Below are positions 8,685-54,739 of a stretch of 64,000 nt of DNA, in pieces (positions within the stretch are counted from its first letter, which is position 1; each line of letters begins with the position of its first letter). The DNA comes from a virus. A model generated the notes under the pieces. It did no database searches and had not been told where the DNA came from. It saw only the letters and a list, made by a program, of their open reading frames with translations. The stretch is from IMG/VR virus record IMGVR_UViG_3300048074_000120, positions 124,972 through 188,971 of that record. One strand, given 5' to 3'. The position numbers were made by a program, and so were the translations under genes.

Positions 8685-9164
8685 ATGAAAGACCCAACAG
8701 TCGTTAGGTTTTGGGCCAAGGTCAACAAACTTGGCCCAGTACATCCAACTCTCAAAACCAGGTGCTGGCTATGGACAGCATCCAAAGATAAAGATGGCTA
8801 TGGATTTTTCAAATTTGAAGGGAAGCAGCACAAGGCGCATAGGGTAGCTTTCAAGCTACGTCACGAGAAATGGCCGAGCCCCAATGCCTTACATAAATGT
8901 GATACCCCGAGATGTGTTAGGTGGTCACATCTTCAGGAGGGAACCGTACTAGACAACAACGCTGATCGTACAGCAAAGGGAAGAGGGGCAGTTGGCGTGA
9001 GGAACGGTGGTGGAGCAAAACTCACGGACGCTAGCGTTCGGGAAATTAGGCGACTACACGCCGATGAGGGCTGGTCTTACCGACTGCTCGCGGAACGCTT
9101 CGAAGTTCACAAATCCAGAATCGCCAGGGTAATAACTGGACAAAATTGGAAACACGTAACTTAG
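8685..9164 (+). CDS. HNH homing endonuclease (HNH_3-like) with C-terminal HTH
   Basis: RFWAKVNK...CWLWT...GYG...AHRV...LHKCD..RC..SHL..GT..DN..D..KGR. Confidence 0.9.
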   Translation: MKDPTVVRFWAKVNKLGPVHPTLKTRCWLWTASKDKDGYGFFKFEGKQHKAHRVAFKLRHEKWPSPNALHKCDTPRCVRWSHLQEGTVLDNNADRTAKGRGAVGVRNGGGAKLTDASVREIRRLHADEGWSYRLLAERFEVHKSRIARVITGQNWKHVT

Positions 9165-9436
9165 ATACCGCCGCCAAGGTTGGGCATACGCGCGGCTTTG
9201 GCGGCCATCCTCTTCTCTTTGATGGCTTTGACAATATCCCCACTGGCTCCAAGGCCATAGCCGGCGGCAGCCCCTGCCAAAGGATCTACGCCAACCATCT
9301 TTGCGACCCCGGCTCCGCCTACAGCGCCCAGTGCCGGGCCAAGCTCATGCTTCGCGCCCTCCCAGAAGTTTCCCAGAGCCCCTGAGGCACTGAGTTTCTG
9401 GAGCTCTTCACGCATGAAACCTGCCGCGTTTTCCAT
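9161..9436 (-). CDS. Gly/Ala-rich protein with FMREELQKLS motif (putative virion internal protein)
   Basis: Shares the N-terminal ELxK(L/I/V)(A/S/G) motif with the 45.6-51.5 kb cluster. Confidence 0.65.
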   Translation of the reverse strand: MENAAGFMREELQKLSASGALGNFWEGAKHELGPALGAVGGAGVAKMVGVDPLAGAAAGYGLGASGDIVKAIKEKRMAAKAARMPNLGGGI

Positions 9437-36521: not shown

Positions 36522-36523
36522 GG

Positions 36524-41726: not shown

Positions 41727-42028
41727 GGACCTTTCTCTGCTGGCCCAGGCTGCTGGAATGCTCTGGCTAGCTCGTTTTGCATGAGGGCCACATTACGAGC
41801 TTGTTTCATACCAAGAAGAGTAGGGTTGAACGCCACGATGTCGTAGGTAGCTACTTTCACCGTGCGAGGTCCCGCCCCTAACGCACCGCTAGCGTCTAAC
41901 TCCTCAACAACGCGATCTAGGCGATATATCTGATAGCCCTCCTCGTCTAACGCGTTCAGGACGATCTCAAGACCCTCCTTCGCTACATTAGGCACGAACT
42001 TCCAAACCTTCTTTTGCTCATCCATCAC
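41723..42028 (-). CDS. hypothetical protein (101 aa)
   Basis: GGAGG SD. Confidence 0.7.
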   Translation of the reverse strand: MMDEQKKVWKFVPNVAKEGLEIVLNALDEEGYQIYRLDRVVEELDASGALGAGPRTVKVATYDIVAFNPTLLGMKQARNVALMQNELARAFQQPGPAEKGP

Positions 42029-43223
42029 TAGCCTCCGCCGGCTTTCTTAGCAGATACGTGCCCGCGAGTGCTTTGATTTCCATGCTCTTTGAAGTGTCCG
42101 TCTGTTTCTCTGCCAAAAGAGACAGCGCTGCAGCAGCCCACCACTTGGAGGGGAGGGGCTCGCCATCGCTACCAACGCCGGGCTTGGGGAGGTCAATAAC
42201 GCCATCGGTCAAGAAGCTTTCGATGGTTGAAACGTCCGACTTGGACAAGGCCTTGTTCAACCGATCTCTGAGCTTTACCCAAGGGATGTCCTCCGCATGG
42301 GCCTTGCCAATGGCATTGAGAAGTGTTTGTACTGACTCGGGCTTCATCACTTCGCGTACAGCTGACTGCTCTGCTGCAGCCACAGCTTCGAGCTCCTTGA
42401 CGGCAGCCCGGTCATCTAGCTTGATGTCCGTGTCCTGCACAACAGAGCCAATGTGGATTCGGCTAAAGGCATCCCCTGTGATGAAGCTGCCTTGCCCATT
42501 GAGGCGAAGCACATTGTGGCTGATCTTCACCTTGCCCTCACCAAAGTCGCTGTTACCCCAGCAGGTGCCGATGGCCACAAACTCCCCTGGGTAAGGTTGG
42601 AAGGCAAAGGGCAAGTAGGTCTGCAGGTGAACGCGAGTATCCGTAATGTGTGCTTTGATCGGCGCCAAGCCAACTTCTTGGCATACCTCGAGAAAAGGCT
42701 GGAGCACTGCTGCGCTGACAAGATGCCTGTTGTAGCTCTGAGTCAGGACCGCCCGGAGTTGTCCATTGACCGTGCGATGCAGGAATTCAGCTTCACGCTT
42801 CAGCTTATTGAGAAATCGCTGGTTTGCGTAAAGTGTGTTGAGGTTCACCACCAGGAGCTCTCGTTTCCAGGCTCCGGGCGTGTCCTCGTCAAGAAAGCCC
42901 AGGTAGGTGCGTTTGAGTCCGGCGATGTCGCTGAGGTGGCCAAGGGCGTGCTTGTGGATCGCCTTGGACTCCGCCGAACCCTGGCGCATCTTGTACCGAA
43001 TACGTACAGGCGAGTGGGCATTACCACCGTCGACAAAGAAGGACATGAGCTTTGGGTGAACGTAACGATCCGTCGGAACGTTGTCGGCACAAAACTGAAC
43101 GAGACGTTTTTGTTCTTGTGAGCCAAGAGTGATGTGAGAAAGGAGACGACGCTGCTGCATGCGTGTTTGTTCGTCATCCCGCACTTCGTAGTCTGCTGCT
43201 GAATAAGGCACAAATACCTCCAT
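42018..43223 (-). CDS. DUF932-like protein (401 aa)
   Basis: LRAVLTQSYNR, WGNSDFGEGKV.I...LRL pattern typical of DUF932. Confidence 0.6.
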   Translation of the reverse strand: MEVFVPYSAADYEVRDDEQTRMQQRRLLSHITLGSQEQKRLVQFCADNVPTDRYVHPKLMSFFVDGGNAHSPVRIRYKMRQGSAESKAIHKHALGHLSDIAGLKRTYLGFLDEDTPGAWKRELLVVNLNTLYANQRFLNKLKREAEFLHRTVNGQLRAVLTQSYNRHLVSAAVLQPFLEVCQEVGLAPIKAHITDTRVHLQTYLPFAFQPYPGEFVAIGTCWGNSDFGEGKVKISHNVLRLNGQGSFITGDAFSRIHIGSVVQDTDIKLDDRAAVKELEAVAAAEQSAVREVMKPESVQTLLNAIGKAHAEDIPWVKLRDRLNKALSKSDVSTIESFLTDGVIDLPKPGVGSDGEPLPSKWWAAAALSLLAEKQTDTSKSMEIKALAGTYLLRKPAEASDG

Positions 43224-43279: not shown

Positions 43280-44041
43280 TCAGATGTTCTGTTTTACTTT
43301 GGTCGCGATAGAGGTCTTCAATCGCGATACCTTGGGCTGTGAGATGCCGAGTTGCGCGGCAAGCCCCGTTGTGTCTGTGATCTTCTTGGCGCCGCCTACG
43401 CCATAGATGTGCTGAAAGACCTTGGCTTCGTCGGGGGTGAAGTATTCGTGAGGACGCTGTTGCATCAGACGAATCACGTCTAGTTCCCGAGAAGAAGCGT
43501 TACCGAAGGGGTCTGTCTCGAAGCGAGAGGCAGGCACATCTTTGCGACGCGCCTTCATCAGCGTTGTGACCTTGTGCTCGGGTAAACCCATGCGAGCGGC
43601 AATCTCACCGTGCGTCGGGGCCCGGCCAAGCTCCTCGAGGAGTTCTTCTTGAGCTCGATCCAACGGACCGATGTTCACCGACTGCCCCTCGGGGATGTAG
43701 CCAACGTTTTGATAGCGTGCGTTGAACCGCTGCGCTTTAGGCAGGCGTGTTTGCACGTGGGTATTGAAGGCAACCCCGCGCTCCGGGTCAAAGGAGTGGG
43801 CTGCATGAATGAACTGCCGCTGAAGCTCTGCGTTGAATGCGGCAGGGTCTACTGCAGGGGCTTTCCAGTCCCTGGCCTTTCTCGCTAGCAAAGGCTCATA
43901 ACGCTTCAACAACGGTTGAAGCTGCTCTGGCTTTCTACCGGATTGATCCCAGGCATGCCAAAGCTGCAGGTCCTCTTCAGCCTTCTTGTTGGCTGTTTTC
44001 TCCTGCAGCTTCAGAAACTCCTGAGCTGGATTCTCATCCAT
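43280..44041 (-). CDS. RNA polymerase sigma-70 family factor, SigB/F/G-like (candidate late sigma)
   Basis: AAHSFDPERGVAFNTH (region 2), ELGRAPTHGEIAARMG (region 3), LAAQLGISQPKVSRLK (region 4). Confidence 0.85.
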   Translation of the reverse strand: MDENPAQEFLKLQEKTANKKAEEDLQLWHAWDQSGRKPEQLQPLLKRYEPLLARKARDWKAPAVDPAAFNAELQRQFIHAAHSFDPERGVAFNTHVQTRLPKAQRFNARYQNVGYIPEGQSVNIGPLDRAQEELLEELGRAPTHGEIAARMGLPEHKVTTLMKARRKDVPASRFETDPFGNASSRELDVIRLMQQRPHEYFTPDEAKVFQHIYGVGGAKKITDTTGLAAQLGISQPKVSRLKTSIATKVKQNI

Positions 44042-44047
44042 GGAACC

Positions 44048-44533
44048 TCAGAATTGGTCTATGACTCGACGCACGCGCTCTGAAAGAGAACCTGCGGCAC
44101 CCTCTTTGGTCTTGCTTTGTAGCAGCAAGGAGTGCGCCGTAAAGTCCCCAGACTTTGCGTGATCGAAGTTTGCACTAAGGACAGCCTGCGCATTACTTTC
44201 AGCGGTAGGCAGTGAGTCAAGCGCTCTGCCAGTGACGGCGTGTCGCTCTTCTTGAGAGGCCACATAGGTGCCTTGGTTTTGGTGGAAGGGGTCCGCACCC
44301 GTGGTCTGCTGCGGCTTTTTCCCCCAGCGGCCATCGACATTGGTCACGTCTTTACGGCCCTTGGGATCGTCGTAGAGATCGGAGTAACTGGCCGTGCTCG
44401 TCGCCTCATTGGTCTCCGGGACTTCACCGCCACCGGCAGCTTCCTTGGCTAACCATTGGGAAAGTTCACTGTTCTCCGCCGTGGTGTAGTTGCTTGCGGT
44501 GATTCGGATGGGGACATCGTCGGTACGTGCCAT
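44048..44533 (-). CDS. hydrophilic hypothetical protein with KEA/KEG motifs (161 aa)
   Basis: ATG ORF; low-complexity, disorder-like composition. Confidence 0.7.
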   Translation of the reverse strand: MARTDDVPIRITASNYTTAENSELSQWLAKEAAGGGEVPETNEATSTASYSDLYDDPKGRKDVTNVDGRWGKKPQQTTGADPFHQNQGTYVASQEERHAVTGRALDSLPTAESNAQAVLSANFDHAKSGDFTAHSLLLQSKTKEGAAGSLSERVRRVIDQF

Positions 44534-44557
44534 ATCACCAGGATACTACGACATTCT

Positions 44558-44920
44558 TCACGTGATACCCAAGTCGGCCCCTATCGTGGCCAGGATGCCT
44601 TCCAGTTCTGCTATTTTGTCGTCCTTTTCCCGAATGGTGGCCTGTACTTCCTCTAGTTTTGCGTTGGCTTCTTGTAGTTCCTCGTAGGTAGTGTCGAGCT
44701 CGTCACTCAAGGCCGAGAGTACCTCTTCCGTGGCACTGCTAAAGACCTTGAAGTCTTCGAACTTCTCGATGGCCATGTCCCAGAGTTTCTTGTCATGAAT
44801 CTCGCAGGACATGGTGATGGTACCGGTGCGGGTACCTACCCTGTTGGAACGCTCCTCAGCAATAACGCCGTAGAAGCGCAGTCCGGGCAGGTCCTTCTCT
44901 ACGTCCGATGTATTTCCCAT
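44558..44920 (-). CDS. coiled-coil protein (120 aa)
   Basis: Heptad run ELDTTYEELQEANAKLEEVQATIREKDDKIAELE. Confidence 0.75.
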   Translation of the reverse strand: MGNTSDVEKDLPGLRFYGVIAEERSNRVGTRTGTITMSCEIHDKKLWDMAIEKFEDFKVFSSATEEVLSALSDELDTTYEELQEANAKLEEVQATIREKDDKIAELEGILATIGADLGIT

Positions 44921-45621
44921 GCTCTTGCTGCAAACCTCTCGGATTGAGAAAGTAAAATCTCGGCAAGCTCAATGAGCCCCTGCATTCCCGTGCGCGCCAC
45001 GTGGGCCGCCTTAGCTAGGCGCGTTCCTACCCGCGTTAGCCTCACGTTGGGGTTTCGCAGCGACTGCCGTAGGATGACGGCAGACTCGCCCGCATAGCGG
45101 TACACGTGCTGCAGCAGCTTACGGTTGTTTTGATATATCTGGTCAGCCCCATCTCCTACGCGCACGGGTACTGCAGCGGGATCATCTGGTTGAAGCACCA
45201 TTCCTAGTGAAAAGGTGTGCTCGGTCATCACGCCTAAAAGCTCTTCATTGTCTCCTCGTAGCATCTCAATGAGGTTCGTTAGGCCTTCACGAGATCTCTC
45301 CCAGGGAGACATGGCTAGTTGCTGAGCTGTGCCCGAGGGTAACCCTACCGGCAAGCGGTAGAGCATCCATTCTACGCAAAGAAAAGCACGCAGGTGTTGA
45401 CGTGCTCGTGTGTTACTGAAGCGCTGAAGCTCTAAAAGCTCTTCTATGTAGTTGAGCTCACGGCTGTACGCGTCAATGGTGAGCACAGTGCTCTCTTCCA
45501 TGTATTTACGCACTTGAGCCAGATAGCTCTCAACTACAGGGCAGGCCGTGTACATGTAGCCTCCTGGTGCAAGAACGGATTGTTCGTAGTTCTTATGCCG
45601 CTTGCGCACTTGTAGTTGCAA
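44899..45621 (-). CDS. hypothetical protein (240 aa)
   Basis: Long ORF in operon. Confidence 0.7.
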   Translation of the reverse strand: MQLQVRKRHKNYEQSVLAPGGYMYTACPVVESYLAQVRKYMEESTVLTIDAYSRELNYIEELLELQRFSNTRARQHLRAFLCVEWMLYRLPVGLPSGTAQQLAMSPWERSREGLTNLIEMLRGDNEELLGVMTEHTFSLGMVLQPDDPAAVPVRVGDGADQIYQNNRKLLQHVYRYAGESAVILRQSLRNPNVRLTRVGTRLAKAAHVARTGMQGLIELAEILLSQSERFAARAWEIHRT

Positions 45622-46012
45622 GAGGGGCTACGCGGTCAATCAACTTCTCAAGCCCATGCTTACCCGCTTGGTAGGCTAGCGTTGCTCCCGGGATCGGCAC
45701 AGCATTTGTGGCAATGGAACCTAATGGGTCTCTTGCCAAGTTGCGTGCTTGACTTGTAATCACAGACTTCACTTTGCCCTCAGGCAATCGACGAAGCCCC
45801 TTGTCTGCTACACGCATGATGGGGTCAGTCACTCGACTGTCCCACCCTTGAGCCACCGCGTGCTGCAGTCCTGCGAGTTCAGCCGGGCTTCGGTGCTTCA
45901 TGAGCAGATGCGGCGTACCCGGAACGTCCGTTGCCCCTAGCCGCACCAAGCGCTCAAGGAGAGCAACCTTCTCGAGCTCTTGGCGCATGAAGGAGAATTC
46001 GAGGTCCATCAA
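45593..46012 (-). CDS. ELxKxA-motif protein, putative virion internal protein (139 aa)
   Basis: FMRQELEKVA near the N-terminus. Confidence 0.75.
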   Translation of the reverse strand: MMDLEFSFMRQELEKVALLERLVRLGATDVPGTPHLLMKHRSPAELAGLQHAVAQGWDSRVTDPIMRVADKGLRRLPEGKVKSVITSQARNLARDPLGSIATNAVPIPGATLAYQAGKHGLEKLIDRVAPLATTSAQAA

Positions 46013-47037
46013 AGTTGATTCTTCAGGGTACCGGAAAGCGGTGTGCCAAAGCCCTTGGGCTTGGCGATGTCGGAGATGCTCGGTCCGGCAAAGCCAGTCA
46101 CCTTTGGGCCACCGACGCGTTGAGCCGCACGCAGTTTACCGGCAACCCCCATGGCGCCAGTAGCTGGTGCCGCAGTCTTTGCCTGTTCGAGGGGCGGAGC
46201 GGTGAAGGGAGGAATTTGACTGGTCTGCTTGAACGGCCCCATGGACAATGGACCTGAGTACTGCGATGCCGACATCCCAGCGCCGACGCCAACACCGGCC
46301 TCTTTCTTGCGCCCCTTGTACGCAGCAACCCCAGCACCACCAGCAACGGCTGTCCCTGCGCCAAGGGTTGCTCTGGCCTTCAGGGTCTCTTTGTCCGCTA
46401 CGCCGGCAAGTACTCCTGCTAGATGCCCTGCGCGCGCGTGCCGTCTAGCGTCAGTCTCAAGGGACTTTGTGGGGCGTGTCCAGCCACCGCTGATCGGAGG
46501 CAGGCTCACGGCTCTGCCAAGATCCGGCTTACTCTTCAGGGCTGACTCAATCGCGCTGGCAGACTCCAGATGCCTCGCGGCCGCGTCCCTGAACTTTGCG
46601 CCTTCACCCTTGACTGCCTTCGCGAAGTTTCGAACCCCGCTTGGGATCAACGCTGCCTGCTTTACCGCAAGTGGCGGGGCTACGAAGGGAGGGATCTGGC
46701 TATGCCCTCGCATGCCCGGGCCATTCTGTGCCGGCTGCCCGCCGTACGCCGAAGCAGCAAATCCTACCTTGGTCAGCACCGTGACGAGTACTTCACCGAG
46801 CGAGGCGTGCTTTATCTTCGGTGACTCGAGCCCACCTGGATTCGACCGCTTCTCATCGTCCTTGGGCGTGCTGTACTTAGCCTTGGCCGTCTGCCGGCCC
46901 TGCGATGTGCCGTATCCCTTGGGTGATTTACCCAAGGCGTGCGACTGCTGGGTCGCTATCCCCCATGCTTCTGATTCTGGCATGCTTGGGTTCTTAGCGC
47001 GAAGATGGGCAACCCTGTCGTGAATCCACTGCGGCAT
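46009..47037 (-). CDS. Gly/Ala/Pro-rich KxA-motif protein (342 aa)
   Basis: KHAS, TKVG, KQAA, KEAG, KTAA; internal repeat SQIPPF.APPL twice. Confidence 0.8.
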   Translation of the reverse strand: MPQWIHDRVAHLRAKNPSMPESEAWGIATQQSHALGKSPKGYGTSQGRQTAKAKYSTPKDDEKRSNPGGLESPKIKHASLGEVLVTVLTKVGFAASAYGGQPAQNGPGMRGHSQIPPFVAPPLAVKQAALIPSGVRNFAKAVKGEGAKFRDAAARHLESASAIESALKSKPDLGRAVSLPPISGGWTRPTKSLETDARRHARAGHLAGVLAGVADKETLKARATLGAGTAVAGGAGVAAYKGRKKEAGVGVGAGMSASQYSGPLSMGPFKQTSQIPPFTAPPLEQAKTAAPATGAMGVAGKLRAAQRVGGPKVTGFAGPSISDIAKPKGFGTPLSGTLKNQL

Positions 47038-47040
47038 GTC

Positions 47041-47457
47041 TTATCCCTGATTCTCTTTCATGTACCGTCGAAGTGTGCCCATCTCAGCACGTCGATCCAT
47101 GGTGTTGCGAATGAGCGGAATCGCTCCCCCGCCTAACGCCCCTTTGGCTGTGTTAGCCGCCAGGTTGAGGACCTTCGCCTTGGTAGTGGCGCCTTTCAGC
47201 GGGGAGCCAGACTCGATCAGGTGCCCGATGGCACCGATACCGGCACCACCAAGTCCACCGATGGCTCCATACCTGGCTGCCTGACCTGCCGTTGGTTTGC
47301 TTTGCTCGAGCGCATCGAGCCGATCGAGAGAACGACGCGCATGCTCCGGAGAAACACCCGCGTACTTCGCCAAGGCTAGCGCCTGACCTGGCGTTACCGC
47401 CCCTTGCGCCAACAGTTCCTTCGCACAGGCGTACTTCAACAGGGCCAGTTCATCCAT
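47041..47457 (-). CDS. Gly/Ala-rich KxA-motif protein (138 aa)
   Basis: LLKYA, LAKYAG; glycine-zipper-like AIGGLGGAGIGAIG. Confidence 0.8.
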   Translation of the reverse strand: MDELALLKYACAKELLAQGAVTPGQALALAKYAGVSPEHARRSLDRLDALEQSKPTAGQAARYGAIGGLGGAGIGAIGHLIESGSPLKGATTKAKVLNLAANTAKGALGGGAIPLIRNTMDRRAEMGTLRRYMKENQG

Positions 47458-48182
47458 TAGGCGGCTCCCGCCGCCATGGGAGGCGGCATCATGCTGTAGC
47501 CAGTAACCGGTGCAGCGACGGGGCGCCGTACGAGACCGGCCGCCTGCCTAGCTTTGTTCACGGCCGTATGCGCTCCCGTTCCCACAACGTCGTGCGCCGC
47601 ATGCGCCGCGGTAGTTCCTAAGCCATGCACTGCTTCACCAATGGCCGGCGCCGCTGTGGCAAGCCCGCCCACCATGTGATGGCCCACCGCGCCTGCCAAG
47701 GACACGGGCGCATGGATGGCGCCACCTAATCCGGCAAGCCCAGCCACTTCACCCACACGCCCAACGGGCTTAGCTGCCCGTTGAAGCCCAACGCCTGCCG
47801 ACTGCATGGTCTGTCCTACACGGCCAGCAATCCCAGAGCCCGCCGTGTGCAGTTCCTTGCCAGCGGCTCGAGTGAGACCTTCAGCGGCCCCACCTAGCGC
47901 GCCACCAAGCGGGTTGATGAGGTTACTGAGCGTGCCCTTGTTCGCGTAGTGATGCCCCACGGAATGGGCGACTTCTCCGGTAACACGCTGACCAAGACTC
48001 GCCGGCGCAAACTTCCCTGGGGCTACGAGTTTGTTCGAACCCAGCATCTTCCCGCCTGCCATGAGATCACGGCCAAAGCTCTGGAAGATGCCAAGCTGCC
48101 CGGCTTTGAAGGGATTGGCCGCAGCAATCTTCTGGTACTCATCAACGAAAGCGGCGTACATCACCTGTTCGTAATCCATCAC
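47457..48182 (-). CDS. Gly/Ala/His-rich ELxKxA-motif protein (241 aa)
   Basis: AFVDEYQKIAA near the N-terminus. Confidence 0.8.
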   Translation of the reverse strand: MMDYEQVMYAAFVDEYQKIAAANPFKAGQLGIFQSFGRDLMAGGKMLGSNKLVAPGKFAPASLGQRVTGEVAHSVGHHYANKGTLSNLINPLGGALGGAAEGLTRAAGKELHTAGSGIAGRVGQTMQSAGVGLQRAAKPVGRVGEVAGLAGLGGAIHAPVSLAGAVGHHMVGGLATAAPAIGEAVHGLGTTAAHAAHDVVGTGAHTAVNKARQAAGLVRRPVAAPVTGYSMMPPPMAAGAA

Positions 48183-49288
48183 ATCCTCGTCGTCGCACCG
48201 GTTTGAGAACCAGCGTCGGCTGTTGCTGCCGCTGTTGGCAAAGTTGCCATGAAGTCTGGACCTGCCTCATGCTTGACCGTAATGGCCGAGCCCGGGCTAG
48301 TGCCGTCTCGCGAAGGAACATCACCCCGTTTGGTTCGATCGGGTTTTTCATCCGAATCGATGCGGCTCATGGTGCTCGTGAGTGGGCTGCCAGCTGAGCC
48401 AACGCCGTCCCAAGCAAGCTTTGAGGTTGGCGAGTCGCTGCCTTCCATGTCGGGAAAGTCCCCGGGCTTCTTCGGTTGCTGTGCGCCTACGCGGTCAGCG
48501 TAAAGTGTAGTGTTCGAAGGATCCACCGTGGCAATCTTTCTTAGCTCATCCATACAGGCTAACCACATAAGTTGCCCGAAACCTGCTGCGGAGCCTAGCT
48601 TTTTTAGTTCATCTCGTAGTGCTGCTCGCTCAGCAAGTATCTGCCTATGTTTTTCTACATCCGTACCAGCCCCGTAAACTCGTGAGGTATGCGCGGCCCT
48701 ACCCTCATCGATCATCCTTGTTAGATGTTTGCGGGCATGTCTACTCACACGGCCTCCCTTGCCAAAATTCAGCCCGGTATGCTGATACAAATCAAGCCCT
48801 TCAGTTGGCAATCGATGCTCTCGAAGAACTTCTCCTGCTGAGCTAAGATCTTTTGGCAGCGTGCTGATCATGTTGTGCTCTCGAAGAATTACATCAGGGC
48901 TAAGGTGGCCATGAAAATTCCCGATAGCTGATGGCCTAGCTTGTAGTTCTGCCAGTTCATGGCCCTTTACGATGGCATCAAGCGCACGGCGTGCCTGGGG
49001 ATCTTTAGGCAAATGTAAGCTAGGATTTTCGTTCCTAAAAAAAGAAGTGGAATCCCCACGCTTTGGGACTTGTATTCTTTGCCCACGGGAAGACCAGGCG
49101 ACGGCACTTCCTAATTCATTTCGATGCGCACCAAGCGCCAAATCTCCACCAAGCCGTTGGAGCGCCTTTCGGCCAGCGCCCACTACCTTCGAGCTGAATG
49201 CCTGAAAGGGACCAGTCTTCAAAAGCATTGGCTTTGTATGCGTCAATACCTGGGAGATCTCCTTTTCACCAAAAGCTAGCTTTTTCAT
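48179..49288 (-). CDS. mosaic KxA-motif protein (369 aa) with a HELAE...H segment
   Basis: MKKLAF, DELKKLG, MDELRKIA, SKLAW; AT-richer N-terminal coding part. Confidence 0.8.
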   Translation of the reverse strand: MKKLAFGEKEISQVLTHTKPMLLKTGPFQAFSSKVVGAGRKALQRLGGDLALGAHRNELGSAVAWSSRGQRIQVPKRGDSTSFFRNENPSLHLPKDPQARRALDAIVKGHELAELQARPSAIGNFHGHLSPDVILREHNMISTLPKDLSSAGEVLREHRLPTEGLDLYQHTGLNFGKGGRVSRHARKHLTRMIDEGRAAHTSRVYGAGTDVEKHRQILAERAALRDELKKLGSAAGFGQLMWLACMDELRKIATVDPSNTTLYADRVGAQQPKKPGDFPDMEGSDSPTSKLAWDGVGSAGSPLTSTMSRIDSDEKPDRTKRGDVPSRDGTSPGSAITVKHEAGPDFMATLPTAAATADAGSQTGATTRM

Positions 49289-49318
49289 GTTGCGGCCAAT
49301 CTAAACTAGCATAATCTT

Positions 49319-49738
49319 GTGATCATCATGAGAGCAAAGCGCGGAAAAGGACACATCAGAAAACTCGGGGGAGAAACTGAGTATCGACTCATACGCATCA
49401 ACGGAAAACAAGTACTTGAACATCGCCACAAGATGGAGGTCAAACTTGGTAGACCTCTCAAAAGAACTGAAGTTGTGCACCACAAGGACGAGAATGGCCT
49501 CAATAACGACATCGACAACTTAGTCGTGCTGACACGCATTGAACACAGACAATTGCACGGTGGCCCAAGGTTTTGGAAAATCACCCTGGAGAAGGCTGTC
49601 CTTATGCGCAACCAGGGAAAGACTCTGGAAGAGATAGCAACCGTGGCTGGCGTTACGTGGACTGCTGTCCACCACGTTTTCAAACGGCGCGGTATTTCAA
49701 CCAAAGACGTCAGAAGAATGCTCATTGAATCTTCCTAA
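49319..49738 (+). CDS. HNH endonuclease (HNH_3) with C-terminal HTH, antisense to flanking genes
   Basis: LEHRHKME.KLGRPL...EVVHHKDENGLNNDIDNL.VL...EH..LH. Confidence 0.92.
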   Translation: MIIMRAKRGKGHIRKLGGETEYRLIRINGKQVLEHRHKMEVKLGRPLKRTEVVHHKDENGLNNDIDNLVVLTRIEHRQLHGGPRFWKITLEKAVLMRNQGKTLEEIATVAGVTWTAVHHVFKRRGISTKDVRRMLIESS

Positions 49739-51302
49739 TCTTTCCCTGCTTTTCCTTGAGACGCCGCTTCAACTCATCCACTGTAATTGTCGTAATTGGG
49801 CCAAGTAGCTTTCTGCCAACGCCGTTGTAATGGTCTAAGTAGGCTTCTCTGGTTGCCTCTTCGCTAGGCATACCTAAGAACAACTTGTCTTCGTCGTACT
49901 TGCCGCTCTCGAGCTTTCGTTGGTGTACTACAAAAGCATTTGGAGCCTTCTTGTCGGCCCCCACATAGACATCGATCTCTTCACCATCGTTGCCCTCGGT
50001 GCCCGTGATGTAACCGTAGGGGATTTTGAAGACAGTCTTCCAGGGCTTGCCATCCTCATCGACACCCTTTCGCACAGATCCCTTGCGGTTCTCAATGGCG
50101 ATGGGAAGGCCCTGCACTGTGGTGTGCCCCTGCAGCTGAAAGGCAAGCTTTTGTCGAAGCTCAGCCACCCGTGCGGTCAAGGGTGACTTTGCTATGTCTG
50201 CCGGAAGTACATGATCACGGTCTTTACCCGCAGCAAAGTTCAAGTGTGGGTAAGCCCGCACAACAACCTGTGAGCAGATGACGGCCTTTTTCTTAGCCTC
50301 GTCAAGCCCCTTGTTTGCGCCCGCGGGCAGCAGGAGACGCAGTGCACCCTTCAGATCGTAGGGAGTACCGACAAAGTCTTTAGCCTTCTCGATAGCTTCG
50401 CCCCTTGCGCTAGCATCGACCTTGGGCCGATACGCACGGATCTCGCGCCCTCCGCCCCACTTCTTGTAGACCTCAGGGAGTGTTGTAGTGAACACGCCTT
50501 TATCAACTCGAGTGTCTATGACCTTGCCGTCGCCGGCATAGATGGAAGAATGACCAAACTCGCTATGCTGCACAGCGGAAACCACGCGGGACATCAATGT
50601 GGGATGTACTGCCCGCGTCAACAGGATATCGCCCGGCTTTAGCCTGGATTCAAAGTTCTTCAAGTCATCTGTGACCAGAGCCCCGCTCTTGGTCAAGTCA
50701 CCAAAGCCAAGACGGCGCAGTTCATCTTCGCTAATCTGAGTCACGCCGCTCATCGTGCGTGTACCCGGCGCTTTCATCGCAGGACTAACCCCCGATGGCC
50801 TAAACGGCGGAACACTTGTCGCCTTGCCCTTGGCCATGGTGGCCATGCCTTGCAGGGGTCGCTTACCAGTATTGATTACCCAGTCCTTGGTACCAGGAAT
50901 TGGCACGCGTAGAAAGTCACCAAGTCCTGCCTGCTTCTCGTGTTCGCCCTCCATCTTCTGCAGCTTGGTGTAGTAGTGCGGATCTTCCGTGAGGTGATCC
51001 ATTGCAATCTCTTGCGCGATCTCGGGGCGACTTGTGTGTTCGCCTTCTACCGCCTTGCCCTGGGCCAACGCCTTAGCATCGAAGTCGTTGGGCTTCTTAT
51101 TGTCCGCCAGTCCACCGGGTAAGTGGTCGTGCCAGTTCTTTTTGAACAAAGTCCCGTCACGGTCCTTCCTAAGTAGAGTGTCGACGCGCATTGAGCGACG
51201 ACCTGACCGAGTCTGAGGGACAGCCATGCGCTGCTTGGAAGCAGCCAACTTCTGAAGTTCATCCAGAAGTCCTTTGTAGTGGGCTGGGGTTAGCGGGTCC
51301 AT
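49722..51302 (-). CDS. polyvalent protein: DUF5661 + permuted papain-like amidase (YiiX/YaeF, C92) + inorganic-pyrophosphatase-like (InPase) domain
   Basis: G..VEGEHT...A.EIAMDHL.EDP.YYTKL; LKPGDILL...GHSSIY.G.G...CSQVV; IAIENRKGSVRKG.D..GKPW...YGYI.GT.G.DGEEIDVYVG...DEDKLFLG. Confidence 0.85.
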   Translation of the reverse strand: MDPLTPAHYKGLLDELQKLAASKQRMAVPQTRSGRRSMRVDTLLRKDRDGTLFKKNWHDHLPGGLADNKKPNDFDAKALAQGKAVEGEHTSRPEIAQEIAMDHLTEDPHYYTKLQKMEGEHEKQAGLGDFLRVPIPGTKDWVINTGKRPLQGMATMAKGKATSVPPFRPSGVSPAMKAPGTRTMSGVTQISEDELRRLGFGDLTKSGALVTDDLKNFESRLKPGDILLTRAVHPTLMSRVVSAVQHSEFGHSSIYAGDGKVIDTRVDKGVFTTTLPEVYKKWGGGREIRAYRPKVDASARGEAIEKAKDFVGTPYDLKGALRLLLPAGANKGLDEAKKKAVICSQVVVRAYPHLNFAAGKDRDHVLPADIAKSPLTARVAELRQKLAFQLQGHTTVQGLPIAIENRKGSVRKGVDEDGKPWKTVFKIPYGYITGTEGNDGEEIDVYVGADKKAPNAFVVHQRKLESGKYDEDKLFLGMPSEEATREAYLDHYNGVGRKLLGPITTITVDELKRRLKEKQGKIRKIQ

Positions 51303-51304
51303 TG

Positions 51305-51541
51305 TTATGCCGCGGCAGGCTGCTTGATGGATTTCAAGTGCGCCTTGATGTTGGAAGCAATCTCAGCGGCGCGTCCTCTATCGCGTGAGGCTACGTTTTG
51401 TACCTGCTTGATGCTAGGGAACATCGAAGGACGAAATCCTTGTCGTTCGGCTAGGTGTGACAGGAGCTCCCCCACACCCTTGCCAGCGCCTATCTTCTGC
51501 AGTTCATCGATAAAACCTGGGTACACAGAGGGGCGATCCAT
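51305..51541 (-). CDS. ELxKxG-motif protein (78 aa)
   Basis: GFIDELQKIG near the N-terminus. Confidence 0.75.
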   Translation of the reverse strand: MDRPSVYPGFIDELQKIGAGKGVGELLSHLAERQGFRPSMFPSIKQVQNVASRDRGRAAEIASNIKAHLKSIKQPAAA

Positions 51542-51577: not shown

Positions 51578-54500
51578 CTAGCCCAGGATGGCTCTGCCGA
51601 TGCCTAAGCCCGCTAAGTAGTCCTTTACCGCGTCTTGTTTCACTTTTCGTGTGTCGCCTTTTTGCGCGGCAGTAGTTCCACGCTTGAGGCCCACGACTTC
51701 TTCGAGTTCGGCGGTCACAAGACCAAACAGGTCGTTGTAAGGGCCAAAAGCTCTCGAGTGAAATCCCTCAATGCCCTGCACAATGTACTGGCCATCGGGG
51801 CTGAGCTGCAGGTCCGTTGTCCCAAACATGTCGATCATGGTGGCAATGGGGCGCCAAGTGTAAGCGCGAATGAACTGCTCGACGTCGAGGCCCGACTGCT
51901 TGATGTGGCTGTAGGTTGCCTGAAGGAAGGCAGCTGCCTGCTCAATCGAAGCTCCCGCTGAAAGCTGATACGCTACCGGGGCCGTTGAACGCGGGTCGTT
52001 AGGATCATCGGTCTCGCTCGAAGAGTCCAAAGCATCCTGGGCATCGTTGTTTGGCGCTGGTACCTGCGCTCCACTCGGATCGTTGATGGTGTGCGGGTCC
52101 GTAATGGCCCCTGTCGAGAAGAACGTCTCGTAGGCCTGTCCGATCTTTGCCGGGTGCCAGATGTCTCCGTACCAGCCAGGCCTGATGTATTCTTCCGCGG
52201 GAAGGTCCACCACCTCTTGATAAAACCGTGGAACTTCTTCTTGCAGTCGATAGGCGCGGATGGTTACCGGGCGTGGCTGCGTGTAAAAGGATGCCTCTTG
52301 GTTTGAAGACGTGTTACCGCCGGCGGCAGGAAGCATCCCGAGCTCACGCAGTACATCCTTGTCGAGGTCACGGGCATCTACCTCTACGCCTACGGGCACC
52401 TTTGCTCGCTTCCTACTGGCTGGGGACCGGGGCTTTCTCCCCGTTTGGCTGCTGAACAGCAAAAGCGGTTTGCTACTCACGGCGTCCTGCACGGTACGTG
52501 TTGTTGGGCTGCCGTGATACAACGAGGAAACTTCCTCTACGTTGGTGATTCTACCTAGGTTGGGGCCTAGGGATTCCACAGAGGGCTGACCGATCGAGGC
52601 CACATCCGTGACGCGCACCACGTCTTCGTTGAAGCGACGACTGATAGTGGTCTCTTCCACATCCGTTGCCCCAAGGTACTCAACCCCCTCGTCGGGCTGA
52701 CGTGGGTAGCTCATCACAACGTCCATGGAGCCACTGCTCTGGTTCACGTTGAAAGTAACCTGAGTAAAGTTACCAAGGAACGCTGTGCCAAGCAGCTTAT
52801 TGATGTCGCGCGTTGGCTTGCCTGCTTTTTGCAGCAGCTCGTTGTAGAGCTGCAGCGTGGCCGCGTCTACGTACTTGTCCAGTACAAGGCCTGGGAAACC
52901 AACGGCGATGTAGGGATTGAATCGCCCGCTTACCGTCATCTGCCGGGCAGCGAAGCGGTACTTGAAGTAGAGAAAGTTTGCCGAGCGCTGAGCAAGGCCT
53001 ACCTGAGGTACTCGATCATTGACTACACCGCCCCTTGCCGCAAAGATGTTGAGCTCCCCCATCTTCTCGAACACAGGCAGGATGCCGGTAAATAGCTCGT
53101 GGTCCAATAGGTCGTTGGTCAATAGCGCTTGAAGGTTGACCTTGCTCTTTTTGACGCTCGACGTCTTTGGTGCAAAGTAGAACCTATCGAACAGCTCATC
53201 CTCACCAAAGAACTCGTCGTTTGTCTTCAGCAGTAGCCGCGTTGGCTCTTCCATGAAGCTACGACGGTAAGAGAGTCTGCTGTAGTGCTCAGGGAACAGT
53301 ACATTGCAGCGTGGGGGCGCGCTGAACCACACATCGGGTCGCAGGATCTGCTGAGCCAAGCGCGCTGGCTTTCGATTCTTACTCGAGTTTGTAACCACTG
53401 TGAGATTAGCCACGCGGTTTAGATTCGAGATGGCGTCCTTTAGTGGGTTCTCAACGTCAGTAATAGACTTTGGATTGTTCGCATTCCAGCGGGCAGCCTT
53501 CGTGGCGGCAATCCCAATTTTTTGCACGGCTGTATTCAGCATGGAGGATGCTGACGGCACCGCGGGGGTTACCCGGCGTAGCTGCATCGTTGTGCTGTTC
53601 AAGAACTGCTGCTGGCGCCTGAGGCGAAGAATGATTTGGCTTCGAAGGCTTGCCTGCACCGTGCCTGACGTAGAGAATAACGAAACATCGGGGCGGTTAT
53701 CCGCAACATGCAGCTGCTGCACGATGGAAGTAAGCTCTGTTGAAACCGCGGTAGCGTTGCGGGCAATGAACACGGTCCCCGGGTCCTGGTCAAGACGCTT
53801 TCGTACCTGCCCGCTTACTGTGCCATCCACGCCGGGAATGTACTTGGGGCAGGGCTGCGCGTAAGTTTCGTGGAAGATAATGCCTTGCAACGCTGTGATG
53901 CTCTGACGGATAGAGGTCTGCCCTCCCATACCTCCGAGCAAGCGACTCATGAGGCTCGTGTAGCCCTGGATGGCAAGGAGCCTTGACGCCGTAGGGTCGT
54001 CCTCGATCGCCATAATCATCTGATTGATGTGCAGACGAAGCTCTGCCAGCGTGAAGAAGATGTTCTGCCCGGCGATCTTCTTGTCGTAGTAGTGCGAACC
54101 ACCAATGGCCTCGAGCAGATGAACTATCCCACCAGCGAGCCCTTTGAGCTTTGGGAAGGTAATGGAGGGCGTACGCAGAATGGTTGTAATAACTTCGGCC
54201 GAGCTCGAGAGAAAATCAGTAAAGAGGTTCGTCGATCCCCCGGAGAACATCGCTTTGATGCCCGGCCCAAAAAGATCTGTGTTCGTCCACTGGTAGGCAT
54301 AGTCCCAATAGTTAGACCAATCCGCACACTGAAGGATGAGCGCGCGCTGTGCTTGATCCTTACTCCACTCGAACCCTAGGAACTCTCCGCCAAAGAACAG
54401 CTTATAACGAGTAAGGTCGTTGACGGCTAAGCCCGCCGTGCCATTGACATCGTTCTCTGCCTGGTTCATCACCTTCTGGTACGACGACGGATCCATGCTG

Positions 54501-54739
54501 CGTGATGCTGTGCCCGCTTGTGACCCTGACAGAAGTGGACTCTCTTCCTCGTAGGGGTCAAGGAAAAATACATGGACTAGTGTGCGCGGCTTTAGCCGTG
54601 TTCCTTCCGGCACCGGTGGCACTTGAATAGCTGCCATGATTGGGGCATTCGGCAGGCATTGAAGCTGTACCCCCACGACAGGGACCTCAACCCCTTCGAG
54701 AAACAATCGAAGCTTCAGACGTAGTGCGTGTGCGGTCAT
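51578..54739 (-). CDS. large probable baseplate hub/tail protein (1053 aa)
   Basis: N-terminal LFLEGVEVPV..VQLQC..N...A.IQVP typical of phage late-control-D/hub-like beta-barrel proteins; in a virion gene cluster. Confidence 0.6.
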   Translation of the reverse strand: MTAHALRLKLRLFLEGVEVPVVGVQLQCLPNAPIMAAIQVPPVPEGTRLKPRTLVHVFFLDPYEEESPLLSGSQAGTASRSMDPSSYQKVMNQAENDVNGTAGLAVNDLTRYKLFFGGEFLGFEWSKDQAQRALILQCADWSNYWDYAYQWTNTDLFGPGIKAMFSGGSTNLFTDFLSSSAEVITTILRTPSITFPKLKGLAGGIVHLLEAIGGSHYYDKKIAGQNIFFTLAELRLHINQMIMAIEDDPTASRLLAIQGYTSLMSRLLGGMGGQTSIRQSITALQGIIFHETYAQPCPKYIPGVDGTVSGQVRKRLDQDPGTVFIARNATAVSTELTSIVQQLHVADNRPDVSLFSTSGTVQASLRSQIILRLRRQQQFLNSTTMQLRRVTPAVPSASSMLNTAVQKIGIAATKAARWNANNPKSITDVENPLKDAISNLNRVANLTVVTNSSKNRKPARLAQQILRPDVWFSAPPRCNVLFPEHYSRLSYRRSFMEEPTRLLLKTNDEFFGEDELFDRFYFAPKTSSVKKSKVNLQALLTNDLLDHELFTGILPVFEKMGELNIFAARGGVVNDRVPQVGLAQRSANFLYFKYRFAARQMTVSGRFNPYIAVGFPGLVLDKYVDAATLQLYNELLQKAGKPTRDINKLLGTAFLGNFTQVTFNVNQSSGSMDVVMSYPRQPDEGVEYLGATDVEETTISRRFNEDVVRVTDVASIGQPSVESLGPNLGRITNVEEVSSLYHGSPTTRTVQDAVSSKPLLLFSSQTGRKPRSPASRKRAKVPVGVEVDARDLDKDVLRELGMLPAAGGNTSSNQEASFYTQPRPVTIRAYRLQEEVPRFYQEVVDLPAEEYIRPGWYGDIWHPAKIGQAYETFFSTGAITDPHTINDPSGAQVPAPNNDAQDALDSSSETDDPNDPRSTAPVAYQLSAGASIEQAAAFLQATYSHIKQSGLDVEQFIRAYTWRPIATMIDMFGTTDLQLSPDGQYIVQGIEGFHSRAFGPYNDLFGLVTAELEEVVGLKRGTTAAQKGDTRKVKQDAVKDYLAGLGIGRAILG

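What the first reader, a model, noticed from the sequence alone, without database searches (positions are those of the whole stretch)
44048..51541. Cluster of proteins sharing an E-L-x-K-(I/L/V)-(A/G/S) or K-x-A motif: candidate capsid-targeting and protease-maturation code
Seen near N-termini: FMRQELEKVA (45593..), AFVDEYQKIA (47457..), LLDELQKLA (49722..), FIDELQKIG (51305..), FMREELQKLS (9161..). Seen internally: MDELRKIA, DELKKLG, KQAA, KEAG, KTAA, KYA, KHAS, KEAA. The proteins are otherwise unrelated, Gly/Ala-rich and probably disordered, and lie between the SigB/F-like sigma and the baseplate genes. Established: T4 gp21 and phiKZ gp175 process internal head proteins at short motifs, and T4 internal proteins carry an N-terminal capsid-targeting peptide. 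Inference: a family of ejected internal head proteins with a shared helical address tag cleaved after K-x-A/G.
Basis: partly seen in the sequence, partly recalled or inferred. Interest (0 to 1): 0.8.

Follow-up and report, generated by a model that had tools for sequence, protein, structure and literature searches.

The report
Shared N-terminal tag on phage cargo proteins
A group of large uncultivated phages puts the same 17-residue opening peptide on many otherwise unrelated, mostly basic proteins, and this peptide most likely addresses them to the inside of the virus head, as phage T4 does with its internal proteins, though no experiment has tested this.

Summary
The long motif is real. E-[LY]-x-K-[ILVM]-[AGS] occurs 7 times in the window, all in real minus-strand genes (6 observed against 0.27 expected in the proteome). 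The loose list of internal K-x-A sites is not more frequent than chance in these proteins (23 against 18.1±3.9).

In relatives the motif sharpens to M-x7-A-F-x-D-E-L-x-K-I-A. This 17-residue opening sits on unrelated proteins or at the joints of fused ones. A scan of IMG/VR found at least 120 places, 81 of 92 examined with a start codon 3-16 codons upstream. The parts after the tag are strongly basic (median pI 10.3 against 6.9). They include SNF2 helicases, GNAT, MazG and a C92 amidase with InPase. The same motif lies inside the scaffold-like head protein.

My best reading is a capsid-targeting propeptide of the T4 kind, probably cut after Lys-x-Ala. Cutting, packaging and ejection are untested.

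This scan has already noted the Lys-x-Ala code in this genome and in many others, and similar tags in other large phages.

The parts
51305..51541 (-). 78-aa protein. Tag = residues 1-18 (51488-51541), MDRPSVYPGFIDELQKIG. The rest is basic (pI 11.0).
   Evidence: tag HMM iE 2.3e-5; 6 orthologues
49722..51302 (-). 526-aa protein: N-terminal tag (51243-51302), then DUF5661, Peptidase_C92 and InPase domains. Partly conserved K-x-A/G sites (K kept in 56-73% of orthologues) lie near the domain borders (residues 123, 205, 385).
49319..49738 (+). HNH_3 homing endonuclease on the opposite strand. It lies where relatives have one continuous gene (tag-...-InPase-C-terminal domain).
48179..49288 (-). 369-aa protein. 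Residues 1-244 have no homologue in the 27 related loci. Two internal tag copies lie at 48593-48610 and 48530-48547. Residues 258-369 are the ancestral C-terminal domain of the 526-aa family.
47457..48179 (-). 240-aa protein counted from the ATG at 48179 (241 aa from the listed GTG at 48182). Tag = 48123-48179 (MDYEQVMYAAFVDEYQKIA). Gly/Ala-rich, basic (pI 10.8). Fused behind InPase proteins in L008, L017, L026 and L027.
47041..47457 (-). 138-aa protein with a worn tag (ALALAKYAG, K31). Orthologues have the canonical tag (e.g. ACLDELQKLGAV).
46009..47037 (-). 342-aa basic protein with no N-terminal tag. Its conserved 67-residue N-domain is followed by a worn internal site (VLTKVG, about 46762-46779). 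In L007/L025 the canonical tag stands at that place.
45593..46009 (-). 138-aa protein counted from the ATG at 46009 (139 aa from the listed TTG at 46012). Tag variant FMRQELEKVA (45962-46009). K-x-A stands directly before the conserved LLERLVRLGATD domain in 13 of 13 aligned family members (this protein and 12 orthologues).
44048..44533 (-). 161-aa protein with a variant N-terminal site SELSQWLAKEAA (about 44435-44473), K kept in 78% of 9 orthologues.
43280..44041 (-). Sigma factor. N-terminal variant NP-x-x-[DE]-[FY]-L...K-x-A (43991-44041), present in 19 of 21 orthologues by my reading of the printed N-termini.
9161..9436 (-). Small Gly/Ala-rich protein outside the cluster with the tag (MENAAGFMREELQKLS). 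The orthologue in G002 has the canonical A-F-Y-D-E-L-S-K-L-A.
51578..54739 (-). 1053-aa conserved protein directly upstream of the cluster. Its N-terminal ~210 residues are homologous to Arash gp8, a virion protein.
44558..45621 (-).

Best explanation
The motif is the core of a 17-residue N-terminal propeptide, M-(D/N/E)-x-(I/V)-x-hydrophobic-(A/S)-A-F-x-D-E-L-(E/Q)-K-I-A. It works like the capsid-targeting sequence of phage T4 internal proteins. Each cargo module carries it at its start, or at the joint when modules are fused into one gene. The tag copies a conserved segment of the phage's own scaffold-like head protein. I infer that tagged proteins join the scaffold core of the procapsid through this segment. 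I further infer that the acidic tag is then removed by the head-maturation protease at the hydrophobic-x-Lys-x-Ala site that also marks the head proteins. That would leave basic proteins and enzymes packed with the DNA and delivered to the host at infection.

Shown: the tag, its position, its conservation, the unrelated and basic cargo, and the copy in the scaffold-like protein. Inferred: targeting, cutting, packaging and ejection.
For: (1) Enrichment and frame. In 27 related loci a looser pattern hits the coding strand 64 times and the other strand once.
(2) Position: of 57 HMM hits in 22 of 28 sources, 29 are N-terminal, 14 have a nearby Met and no upstream homology, 9 are internal with upstream homology and 5 are internal without. 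Of 92 exact pattern matches in 80 IMG/VR loci, 62 have an ATG and 19 a GTG/TTG 3-16 codons upstream of the Phe, and 11 have none. A reverse-order control pattern gave 47 stretches, of which 37 are one near-identical protein and 0 have such an ATG.
(3) Peptide-level selection: synonymous codons vary at every conserved position.
(4) Sharp end: information drops from 3-5 bits to 0.35 bit or less right after K-I-A.
(5) Breadth: 27 of 30 large tag-bearing contigs have a capsid-protein homologue, 32-74% identical.
(6) Modularity: the same domains occur as separate tagged genes or fused with the tag at the joint, as in L026 (714 aa), L023 (563 aa), L007 (783 aa) and L015 (215 aa).
(7) Head link: the scaffold-like protein between the protease candidate and the capsid gene carries [AS]-[FY]-V-x-E-[LM]-x-K-I-A in about 25 of 35 orthologues (my count from the printed alignment). 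It carries the exact motif in 6 matches (5 distinct sequences) in distant relatives. In four of these loci the ORF lies between the protease-candidate and capsid-gene matches, and a fifth is consistent with that order.
(8) Cargo: the sequence after the tag has median pI 10.3, and 88% are above 8.5, against 6.9 and 40% for 625 other ORFs of the same loci (p=6e-21; the 75 tagged ORFs include a few internal copies cut 8 residues before the Phe). The tag has net charge -2. Cargo domains are SNF2 helicase, GNAT with glyoxalase, MazG, transketolase-like, and C92 with InPase.
(9) Neighbourhood: the cluster lies between homologues of Arash gp8 (hhalign probability 95%, E=3e-8) and Arash sigma gp10 (8e-20). 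Both were detected in Arash particles (PMC10585845, passages read).
Against: - There are no data on cutting, packaging or ejection.
- No capsid protease is recognisable by sequence. Pfam S77, S78, S21 and ClpP are absent from the genome.
- The 588-aa candidate has no Pfam, PHROG or PDB match and does not align with T4 gp21. There is only a weak Atlas lead to Peptidase_S78 clusters (score 0.86, TM 0.26/0.37).
- The residue after K-I-A is free (A 16, G 10, K 7, V 6, S 6, L 6, T 5 of 77), unlike the K-x-A-(S/A) of head proteins.
- Five of 13 aligned members of the 139-aa family (four distinct sequences) start directly at M-(D/E)-K-x-A without the upstream half of the tag.
- The 138-aa protein of this genome has lost D-E.
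- The helix test by hydrophobic moment is inconclusive (2 of 4 tags near the 5-7% tail, 2 not).
- The cultured relative Arash has no extended tag anywhere in its genome (best iE 0.36, in a frame that is not a gene), so its virion proteome cannot test the idea.
- K-x-A is not over-represented in the region.
Confidence: 0.55

Rival explanations
1. The tag is only an extended cleavage site of the head protease (the long form of the Lys-x-Ala code). It has no addressing role, and the proteins reach the head, or are processed elsewhere, by other means.
For: The tag ends in the same hydrophobic-x-K-x-A as the head-module sites. K-x-A is the only part kept in 13 of 13 aligned members of the 139-aa family, including those that start at M-D-K-x-A. 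In scaffold orthologues that lack K-I-A, a K-x-A reappears three residues further on. Tags stand at the joints of fused genes.
Against: Eight further positions upstream of the site are conserved (A, F, D, E, L, and I/V at -5), and the start Met sits at a preferred distance (at -8 in 25 of 77). That is more than the short head-protein sites show. The residue after the site is unconstrained. No cut has been shown and no protease identified.
Confidence: 0.15
2. The tag is an uncut docking peptide for another assembly or enzyme. Candidates are the tail or ejection apparatus next to the 1053-aa protein, the phage RNA polymerase and sigma, a chaperone, or a modifying enzyme that recognises the peptide.
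For: In 27 of 27 related loci the tagged genes follow the 1053-aa gene, whose Arash homologue is annotated as a virion cell-wall hydrolase. The sigma factor has a related N-terminal peptide. Earlier notes of this scan (e1-127136, unchecked by me) record a shared N-terminal tag that turned out to go with a modifying enzyme and not with capsid sorting.
Against: The exact motif is a conserved internal element of the scaffold-like protein encoded between the protease candidate and the capsid gene. The cargo is overwhelmingly basic, as expected for proteins packed with DNA. I saw no single enzyme gene linked to the tags, but I did not test this systematically.
Confidence: 0.2
3. The tag is a double-glycine-type leader that is cut by a C39-like peptidase and exported.
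For: There is a superficial likeness of E-L-x-x-I-x-(G/A)-(G/A) in the 78-aa protein (ELQKIGAG). The leader consensus is recalled from memory and was not tested against a model.
Against: The two residues that would be Gly-Gly are not conserved. After K-I-A, Gly occupies 10 of 77 and then 7 of 77 positions. In the first set it occupies 4 of 52 at each position. The invariant Lys and Ala are not features of such leaders. The only peptidase domain found in any of my Pfam or PHROG scans was Peptidase_C92, and none was a C39 peptidase or an ABC exporter. Those scans covered selected proteins and not the whole genome.
Confidence: 0.02
4. The motif is a chance match or a left-over of recent gene duplication without a function of its own.
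For: Two of the window's tags (FMRQELEKVA and FMREELQKLS) look like a sub-family.
Against: 6 observed against 0.27 expected. The proteins are unrelated outside the tag. The tag is kept in genomes whose capsid proteins are only 32-74% identical, with varied codons. There were 77 distinct 30-residue contexts in the IMG/VR scan, against about 8 distinct contexts for the control.
Confidence: 0.02

Closest known systems
Capsid-targeting sequence (CTS) of phage T4 internal proteins IPI, IPII, IPIII (Mullaney and Black 1996, cited in PMC9024508 and PMC10052503; review PMC3012670, passages read)
   Same: A short conserved N-terminal peptide is the only thing shared by diverse proteins. In T4 it loads them into the scaffold core of the prohead. 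T4 internal proteins contact the DNA through lysines (PMC3012670), and here the cargo is basic. The locus is plastic, with fusions, splits and a homing-endonuclease insertion.
   Different: The sequence is different and longer (17 residues). It ends in Lys-x-Ala, not in the (L/I)-x-Glu site of gp21 (the T4 site is recalled, not tested here). It also occurs at internal joints of fused genes and inside the scaffold-like protein. The cargo includes large enzymes. Nothing has been shown experimentally.
N-terminal packaging signal of phage P1 DarB (PMC9024508, abstract and passages read)
   Same: In P1 an N-terminal ~30 residues are sufficient to bring a large enzyme into the head for delivery to the host. 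The 526-aa protein's InPase domain matches a PHROG named DarB-like antirestriction. SNF2 helicases are among the tagged cargo.
   Different: The P1 signal is described for one protein and not as a motif shared by many. I saw no sequence likeness, but I made no comparison.
Propeptides of head and ejection proteins of SPN3US and phiKZ-like phages, cut after A-X-E (PMC10052503, passages read)
   Same: Several head proteins have N-terminal propeptides, two of them short (20 and 24 residues). These are removed by the prohead protease at a simple motif, and the authors suggest a targeting role.
   Different: The motif there is A-X-E with Ser preferred after the cut. Here it is hydrophobic-x-K-x-A with a free next residue. 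In SPN3US the cuts were measured by mass spectrometry, here none was.
Polyvalent proteins of phages and conjugative elements
   Same: The 526-aa protein combines DUF5661, a papain-like C92 amidase and InPase. These domains occur in very long PHROG families named minor head protein, virion structural protein and DarB-like.
   Different: Here the modules are short, mostly in separate genes, and each is preceded by a common tag. I do not recall such a tag being described for polyvalent proteins and did not search for one.
Cargo-loading peptides of encapsulins (recalled, not tested)
   Same: A short conserved terminal peptide on unrelated cargo directs it into a shell built from an HK97-fold protein.
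   Different: Those peptides are mostly C-terminal, are not removed, and have a different sequence. There is no DNA and no scaffold protein carrying the same motif.

Membership tests
T4-type capsid-targeting propeptide of internal head proteins | A short N-terminal peptide shared by otherwise unrelated proteins of one phage | tested here: met
T4-type capsid-targeting propeptide of internal head proteins | The peptide ends at the cleavage motif of the phage's prohead protease and is removed | tested here: inconclusive
   It ends in hydrophobic-x-K-x-A, the motif enriched in head-module proteins. There are no cleavage data, and the protease was not recognisable. The residue after the site is free.
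T4-type capsid-targeting propeptide of internal head proteins | Tagged proteins are inside the head of the virion | not testable with these tools
   No cultured phage carries the tag (Arash). Indirect signs only: basic cargo, scaffold copy, virion-gene neighbours.
T4-type capsid-targeting propeptide of internal head proteins | The tag is sufficient to load a foreign protein | not testable with these tools
   Needs an experiment.
T4-type capsid-targeting propeptide of internal head proteins | Descent from the T4 system (gp21-type protease S77, gp23-type capsid protein) | tested here: not met
   Pfam Peptidase_S77 and Gp23 are not found in the genome. hhalign of the candidate family against T4 gp21 gives probability 0.2%. 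So it works like the T4 CTS but is not a member by sequence.
Polyvalent proteins (InPase / DUF5661 / peptidase modules) | Characteristic domain set | tested here: met
   PF18823 E=1.3e-39, PF18905 E=1e-9, PF05708 E=1.3e-8 in the 526-aa protein.
Polyvalent proteins (InPase / DUF5661 / peptidase modules) | Many effector domains strung in one very long protein | tested here: not met
   The protein has 526 aa. The modules are split over genes in this genome and variably fused in relatives.
Double-glycine leader peptides | Gly-Gly (or Gly-Ala/Ser) at the last two leader positions | tested here: not met
Lys-x-Ala head-protease code noted earlier in this scan | Hydrophobic-x-K-x-A-(S/A) over-represented and conserved in head-module proteins | tested here: met
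   33 against 11.3±3.3 in the proteome, clustered in the genes at 37.7-44 kb of the genome. F-E-K-x-A-(S/A) is printed at the N-terminus of 34 of the 40 listed orthologues of the protease candidate; in the other six the 40-residue print stops before the site (4) or the two most distant members show a different N-terminus (2). Also seen in Arash gp220-226.
Lys-x-Ala head-protease code noted earlier in this scan | K-x-A over-represented in the proteins of this finding | tested here: not met
   23 against 18.1±3.9. Only the conservation of these lysines is raised.

The most novel reading that the evidence does not exclude
Cargo enters the procapsid by mimicking the scaffold. The 17-residue tag is a copy of the scaffold protein's own conserved helix, so tagged proteins co-assemble with the scaffold core. 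A head protease with an undescribed Lys-x-Ala rule then frees them. If so, the whole injected proteome of a large uncultivated phage group can be read from sequence alone. That proteome would include basic DNA-bound proteins, SNF2 helicases, acetyltransferases, a cell-wall amidase with pyrophosphatase and, through a variant tag, a sigma factor.
Probability: 0.3. Interest if true: 0.8.

Novelty: new variant of a known kind. Interest (0 to 1): 0.6.

Why it matters
If the tag is an address label, it does three things. It gives a sequence-only way to list the proteins that a widespread group of 100-210-kb environmental phages carries in its head and probably injects. It points to many unknown small basic proteins and enzymes as candidate host-takeover or anti-defence factors. 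It offers a second, independent capsid-targeting peptide, with a different cut rule, for loading foreign proteins into phage heads. The copy of the tag inside the scaffold-like protein suggests a concrete and testable loading mechanism. I do not know of a settled mechanism for the T4 signal; the passages I read say only that it loads proteins into the scaffolding core.

Tried and rejected
- DNA and protein similarity to cultured phages. blastn of the region found no match. tblastn of the 1053-aa protein found no match. Only the capsid protein found Arash and three Vibrio phages, at 26-28% identity.
- Pfam and PHROG on the small tagged proteins found nothing useful, except for the 526-aa protein.
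- Identifying the protease. Pfam S77, gp23, S78, ClpP and S21 searches of the genome were all empty. The S21 control also found nothing anywhere, so that search says little. Pfam and PHROG on the 588-aa candidate were empty. PDB searches by sequence and by profile gave only chance hits. hhalign against T4 gp21 gave no match. A search of 5.8 billion proteins found at least 1428 relatives, none named as a protease and named only 'hypothetical protein' or, in two intein-bearing forms, 'intein/homing endonuclease'. The Atlas gave a weak lead only.
- Single-linkage clustering of cluster proteins merged everything through fused genes. I replaced it with direct pairwise checks.
- K-x-A enrichment in the region is rejected as a count.
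- The double-glycine leader idea is rejected.
- The amphipathic-helix test by hydrophobic moment was inconclusive.
- The tag search in the whole Arash genome was negative, so the Arash virion proteome cannot test packaging of tagged proteins. The paper names no public deposit of spectra in the text I searched. Its supplements were not opened and may hold peptide-level data that bear on K-x-A cuts.
- One literature search for 'K-X-A' or 'KXA' with prohead or maturation protease listed no paper describing such a phage cleavage rule (listing only). I ran no literature search for the longer tag.

Full report
**Setting.** The window is the last 64 kb of a 188,971-bp IMG/VR phage record (G000). The span 44048-51541 holds eleven genes. 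Ten are co-directional on the minus strand. The eleventh is an HNH_3 homing endonuclease on the plus strand. Upstream lies a conserved 1053-aa gene. Downstream lies a sigma factor (PHROG 351 E=2.4e-13; Sigma70_r3 E=6.8e-12). Almost nothing here matches known families. The region has no DNA match among 50,697 phage records.

K-x-A occurs 23 times against 18.1±3.9, and K-x-[AGS] 41 times against 42.7±5.2. Lysines in that context are better conserved than other lysines of the same proteins (0.60 against 0.43, p=0.004). With the tag masked, no two of the window's proteins match each other at E<1e-5.

**What relatives show.**
- The 1053-aa protein found 27 related loci in IMG/VR, 42-91% identical.
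- In these loci a looser pattern hits the coding strand 64 times and the other strand once.
- Fifty-two distinct instances give the consensus hydrophobic-A-A-F-x-D-E-L-x-K-I-A-A.
- A profile built from these instances finds five strong sites in G000 itself. These are the 78-, 241- and 526-aa proteins, the internal site of the 369-aa protein, and an internal site of a 271-aa acidic protein in the head module. Weaker hits fall on the 94-aa protein at 9161-9436 and on the first site of the 369-aa protein.
- Across the 27 loci plus the window there are 57 hits in 22 of 28 sources. Of these, 29 are N-terminal and 14 have a Met just upstream with no homology further up, which suggests over-extended ORFs. 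Nine are internal with homologous sequence upstream and 5 are internal without.
- The profile was built from these same loci, so these counts describe and do not test.

**An independent scan.** I scanned IMG/VR for the back-translated motif A-F-x-D-E-L-x-K-I-A.
- The 80 loci returned hold 92 matches. Sixty-two have an ATG, 19 a GTG or TTG, and 11 no start codon 3-16 codons upstream of the Phe.
- Ten of the 80 loci hold two to four matches.
- A control pattern with the same codons in reverse order gave 47 stretches. Thirty-seven are one near-identical long protein and none has such an ATG.
- Among 77 distinct contexts, Met stands at -8 in 25, I/V at -5 in 37, A/S at -2 in 36 and E/Q at +5 in 37. 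Information content falls to 0.35 bit or less directly after K-I-A.
- Synonymous codons vary at every conserved position, so selection acts on the peptide.
- Twenty-seven of 30 large tag-bearing contigs encode a homologue of this phage's capsid protein, 32-74% identical. All 16 that are at least 90% complete do.

The tag therefore belongs to a wide group of phages of roughly 100-210 kb.

**Modular cargo.** The window's tagged proteins are unrelated to each other, but relatives shuffle the same modules.
- The 241-aa module is fused behind InPase proteins in L008, L017, L026 and L027. In L026 a full tag stands at the joint (Phe at residue 441 of 714).
- The 138-aa module follows an InPase domain in L023, with a tag at residue 206.
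- The N-domain of the 342-aa protein is followed by a tag and an SNF2 helicase in L007 and L025.
- The 526-aa protein is tag-DUF5661-Peptidase_C92-InPase.
- In L002-L006 its orthologues run on into a C-terminal domain. In G000 that domain is residues 258-369 of the 369-aa protein. The HNH gene and 244 residues without homologues lie in between.
- Partly conserved K-x-A/G sites lie near that family's domain borders, including the junction H-[KT]-K-[IL]-A-T.
- In the 139-aa family, K-x-A stands directly before the conserved LLERLVRLGATD domain in all 13 aligned members. This holds whether the site follows a full tag, opens the ORF as M-D-K-x-A (5 members, four distinct sequences) or lies at a fusion joint.

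**Worn or variant tags.** These occur in the 138-aa protein (ALAKYAG), the 342-aa protein (VLTKVG), the 161-aa protein (SELSQWLAKEAA) and the sigma factor. The sigma factor has NP-x-x-[DE]-[FY]-L...K-x-A in 19 of 21 orthologues by my reading.

**What the cargo is.** Of 75 tagged ORFs from the IMG/VR scan, Pfam recognises only a few. They are SNF2 helicases (2), Peptidase_C92 (2), a transketolase-like protein, a GNAT with glyoxalase protein and a MazG-like protein. The rest have no family.

The sequence after the tag is strikingly basic. Its median pI is 10.3 and 88% are above 8.5. For 625 other ORFs of the same loci the figures are 6.9 and 40% (p=6e-21). The 75 include a few internal copies cut 8 residues before the Phe. 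The tag itself carries a net charge of -2. In the window the mature parts of the 78-, 526-, 241-, 138-, 342-, 139- and 94-aa proteins have pI 9.6-11.0.

**Link to the head.**
- The capsid protein is at 35989-37107 of G000 (PHROG 2522 E=2e-13).
- Hydrophobic-x-K-[ILVM]-[AS]-x occurs 33 times in the proteome against 11.3±3.3, and clusters in the genes just upstream of the capsid gene.
- One of these genes is a 271-aa acidic protein between a conserved 588-aa protein and the capsid gene. It carries [AS]-[FY]-V-x-E-[LM]-x-K-I-A in about 25 of 35 distinct orthologues. Where K-I-A is missing, a K-x-A appears three residues later.
- In distant relatives (capsid protein 38-45% identical) six pattern matches (five distinct sequences) have the exact motif preceded by G-(R/K)-x-x-A-R. 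In four of these loci the ORF lies between the matches to the 588-aa protein and to the capsid gene, and a fifth is consistent with that order.
- The capsid protein's own N-terminus holds L-N-(D/E)-L-F-x-x-K-L-G and G-K-E-K-I-A-E. The whole protein is so conserved that this proves little.

**The protease.** I could not identify it. The 588-aa protein has many invariant His, Ser and Asp residues. F-E-K-x-A-(S/A) is printed near the N-terminus of 34 of its 40 listed orthologues. In four more the printed stretch stops before the site, and the two most distant members show a different N-terminus. The family has at least 1428 relatives, some interrupted by inteins.

It has no Pfam, PHROG or PDB match and no hhalign match to T4 gp21. 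Pfam models of the known capsid-protease families find nothing in the genome. The Atlas look-up of a 53%-identical homologue gave only a weak lead to Peptidase_S78 clusters. Earlier notes of this scan call this phage's protease T4/herpesvirus-like. I could not check that.

**Cultured relative.** The capsid protein finds Salmonella phage Arash at 28.5% identity. I read passages of its paper (PMC10585845), not the supplements. It reports virion mass spectrometry with RNA polymerase subunits, sigma gp10, the 'cell wall hydrolase' gp8, gp4, gp6 and gp7 among 116 proteins. The authors warn that abundant enzymes may simply co-purify.

The 1053-aa family is homologous to the N-terminus of gp8 (hhalign probability 95%, E=3e-8). 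The window's sigma factor is homologous to gp10 (8e-20). The tag cluster therefore sits between homologues of two proteins detected in Arash particles. In Arash the tail and baseplate genes lie elsewhere (gp227-gp239). Arash head proteins gp220-gp226 are packed with K-x-A-(S/A). The extended tag is absent from the whole Arash genome.

**Reading.** The closest known system is the T4 capsid-targeting sequence. [quoted passage not shown] Two further parallels exist. P1 DarB has an N-terminal packaging signal (PMC9024508). SPN3US has short 20-24-residue propeptides cut after A-X-E (PMC10052503).

The present tag works like these on the evidence of position, shared use, basic cargo and the copy in the scaffold-like protein. 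It is not a member of the T4 family by sequence. Cleavage after Lys-x-Ala is plausible but unproven. The free residue after the site and the orthologues that lack the upstream half both argue for caution.

**Within this scan.** The Lys-x-Ala code was already noted for this genome and many others. Comparable N-terminal tags were noted in other large phages.

Noticed in passing
window 49319-49738 (+): An HNH_3 homing endonuclease lies on the opposite strand, exactly where relatives have one continuous gene. Together with 244 residues of unmatched sequence it splits the tag-DUF5661-C92-InPase gene from its old C-terminal domain.
   Followed up: partly
window 43991-44041 (-): The sigma factor starts with a related peptide (NP-x-x-[DE]-[FY]-L ... 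K-x-A), kept in 19 of 21 orthologues by my reading. Its Arash homologue gp10 was found in virions but lacks this peptide.
   Followed up: partly
window 47038-47050 (-): CAGGGATAAGAC stands directly before the ATG of the 342-aa gene. It matches the core of the phage promoter described in earlier notes of this scan, which would leave almost no leader.
   Followed up: no
window 56689-57252 (-): A second HNH endonuclease gene (PHROG 1872, E=1e-29) lies among the large conserved genes upstream of the cluster.
   Followed up: no
L029:13340-15103 (-), G000 40337-42103: The 588-aa head-module protein (protease candidate) has at least 1428 relatives, none named as a protease. About a dozen of the 120 listed carry intein or homing-endonuclease domains (PF14528, PF05203, PF13403).
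   Followed up: partly
L030:1-2249 (-), G000 46001-48249: The 749-residue piece I scanned of the 960-aa ORF at G000 45367-48249 matches the large terminase (PHROG 675, E=2e-41). It has extra weak hits to PhoH-like and ribonucleotide-reductase families at residues 402-478, possibly an insertion.
   Followed up: no
L114 (Salmonella phage Arash 138705-163568): Arash head-module proteins gp220, gp223 and gp225 hold 7-9 K-x-A-(S/A/...) sites each, and the capsid protein gp226 has one at residue 27. The short code therefore reaches a cultured phage whose spectra could test it.
   Followed up: partly
L031:7421-8491 (-) and L029:15128-15724 (-): Two further G000 proteins outside the window start with tag-like peptides. 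One is MRGFVEQLSKEALAG in a 356-aa Gly-rich protein. The other is MANPVEEFFLTKQAL in a 198-aa protein of the head module.
   Followed up: no
window 46837-47037 (-): The first 67 residues of the 342-aa protein are conserved across the 20 related proteins aligned. In other genomes they head very different bodies, including an SNF2 helicase in L007 and L025.
   Followed up: partly
window 39749-40768 (-) and 17746-18891 (-): A thymidylate synthase (PHROG 85, E=6e-56) and an ATP-dependent DNA ligase (PHROG 114, E=2e-79).
   Followed up: no
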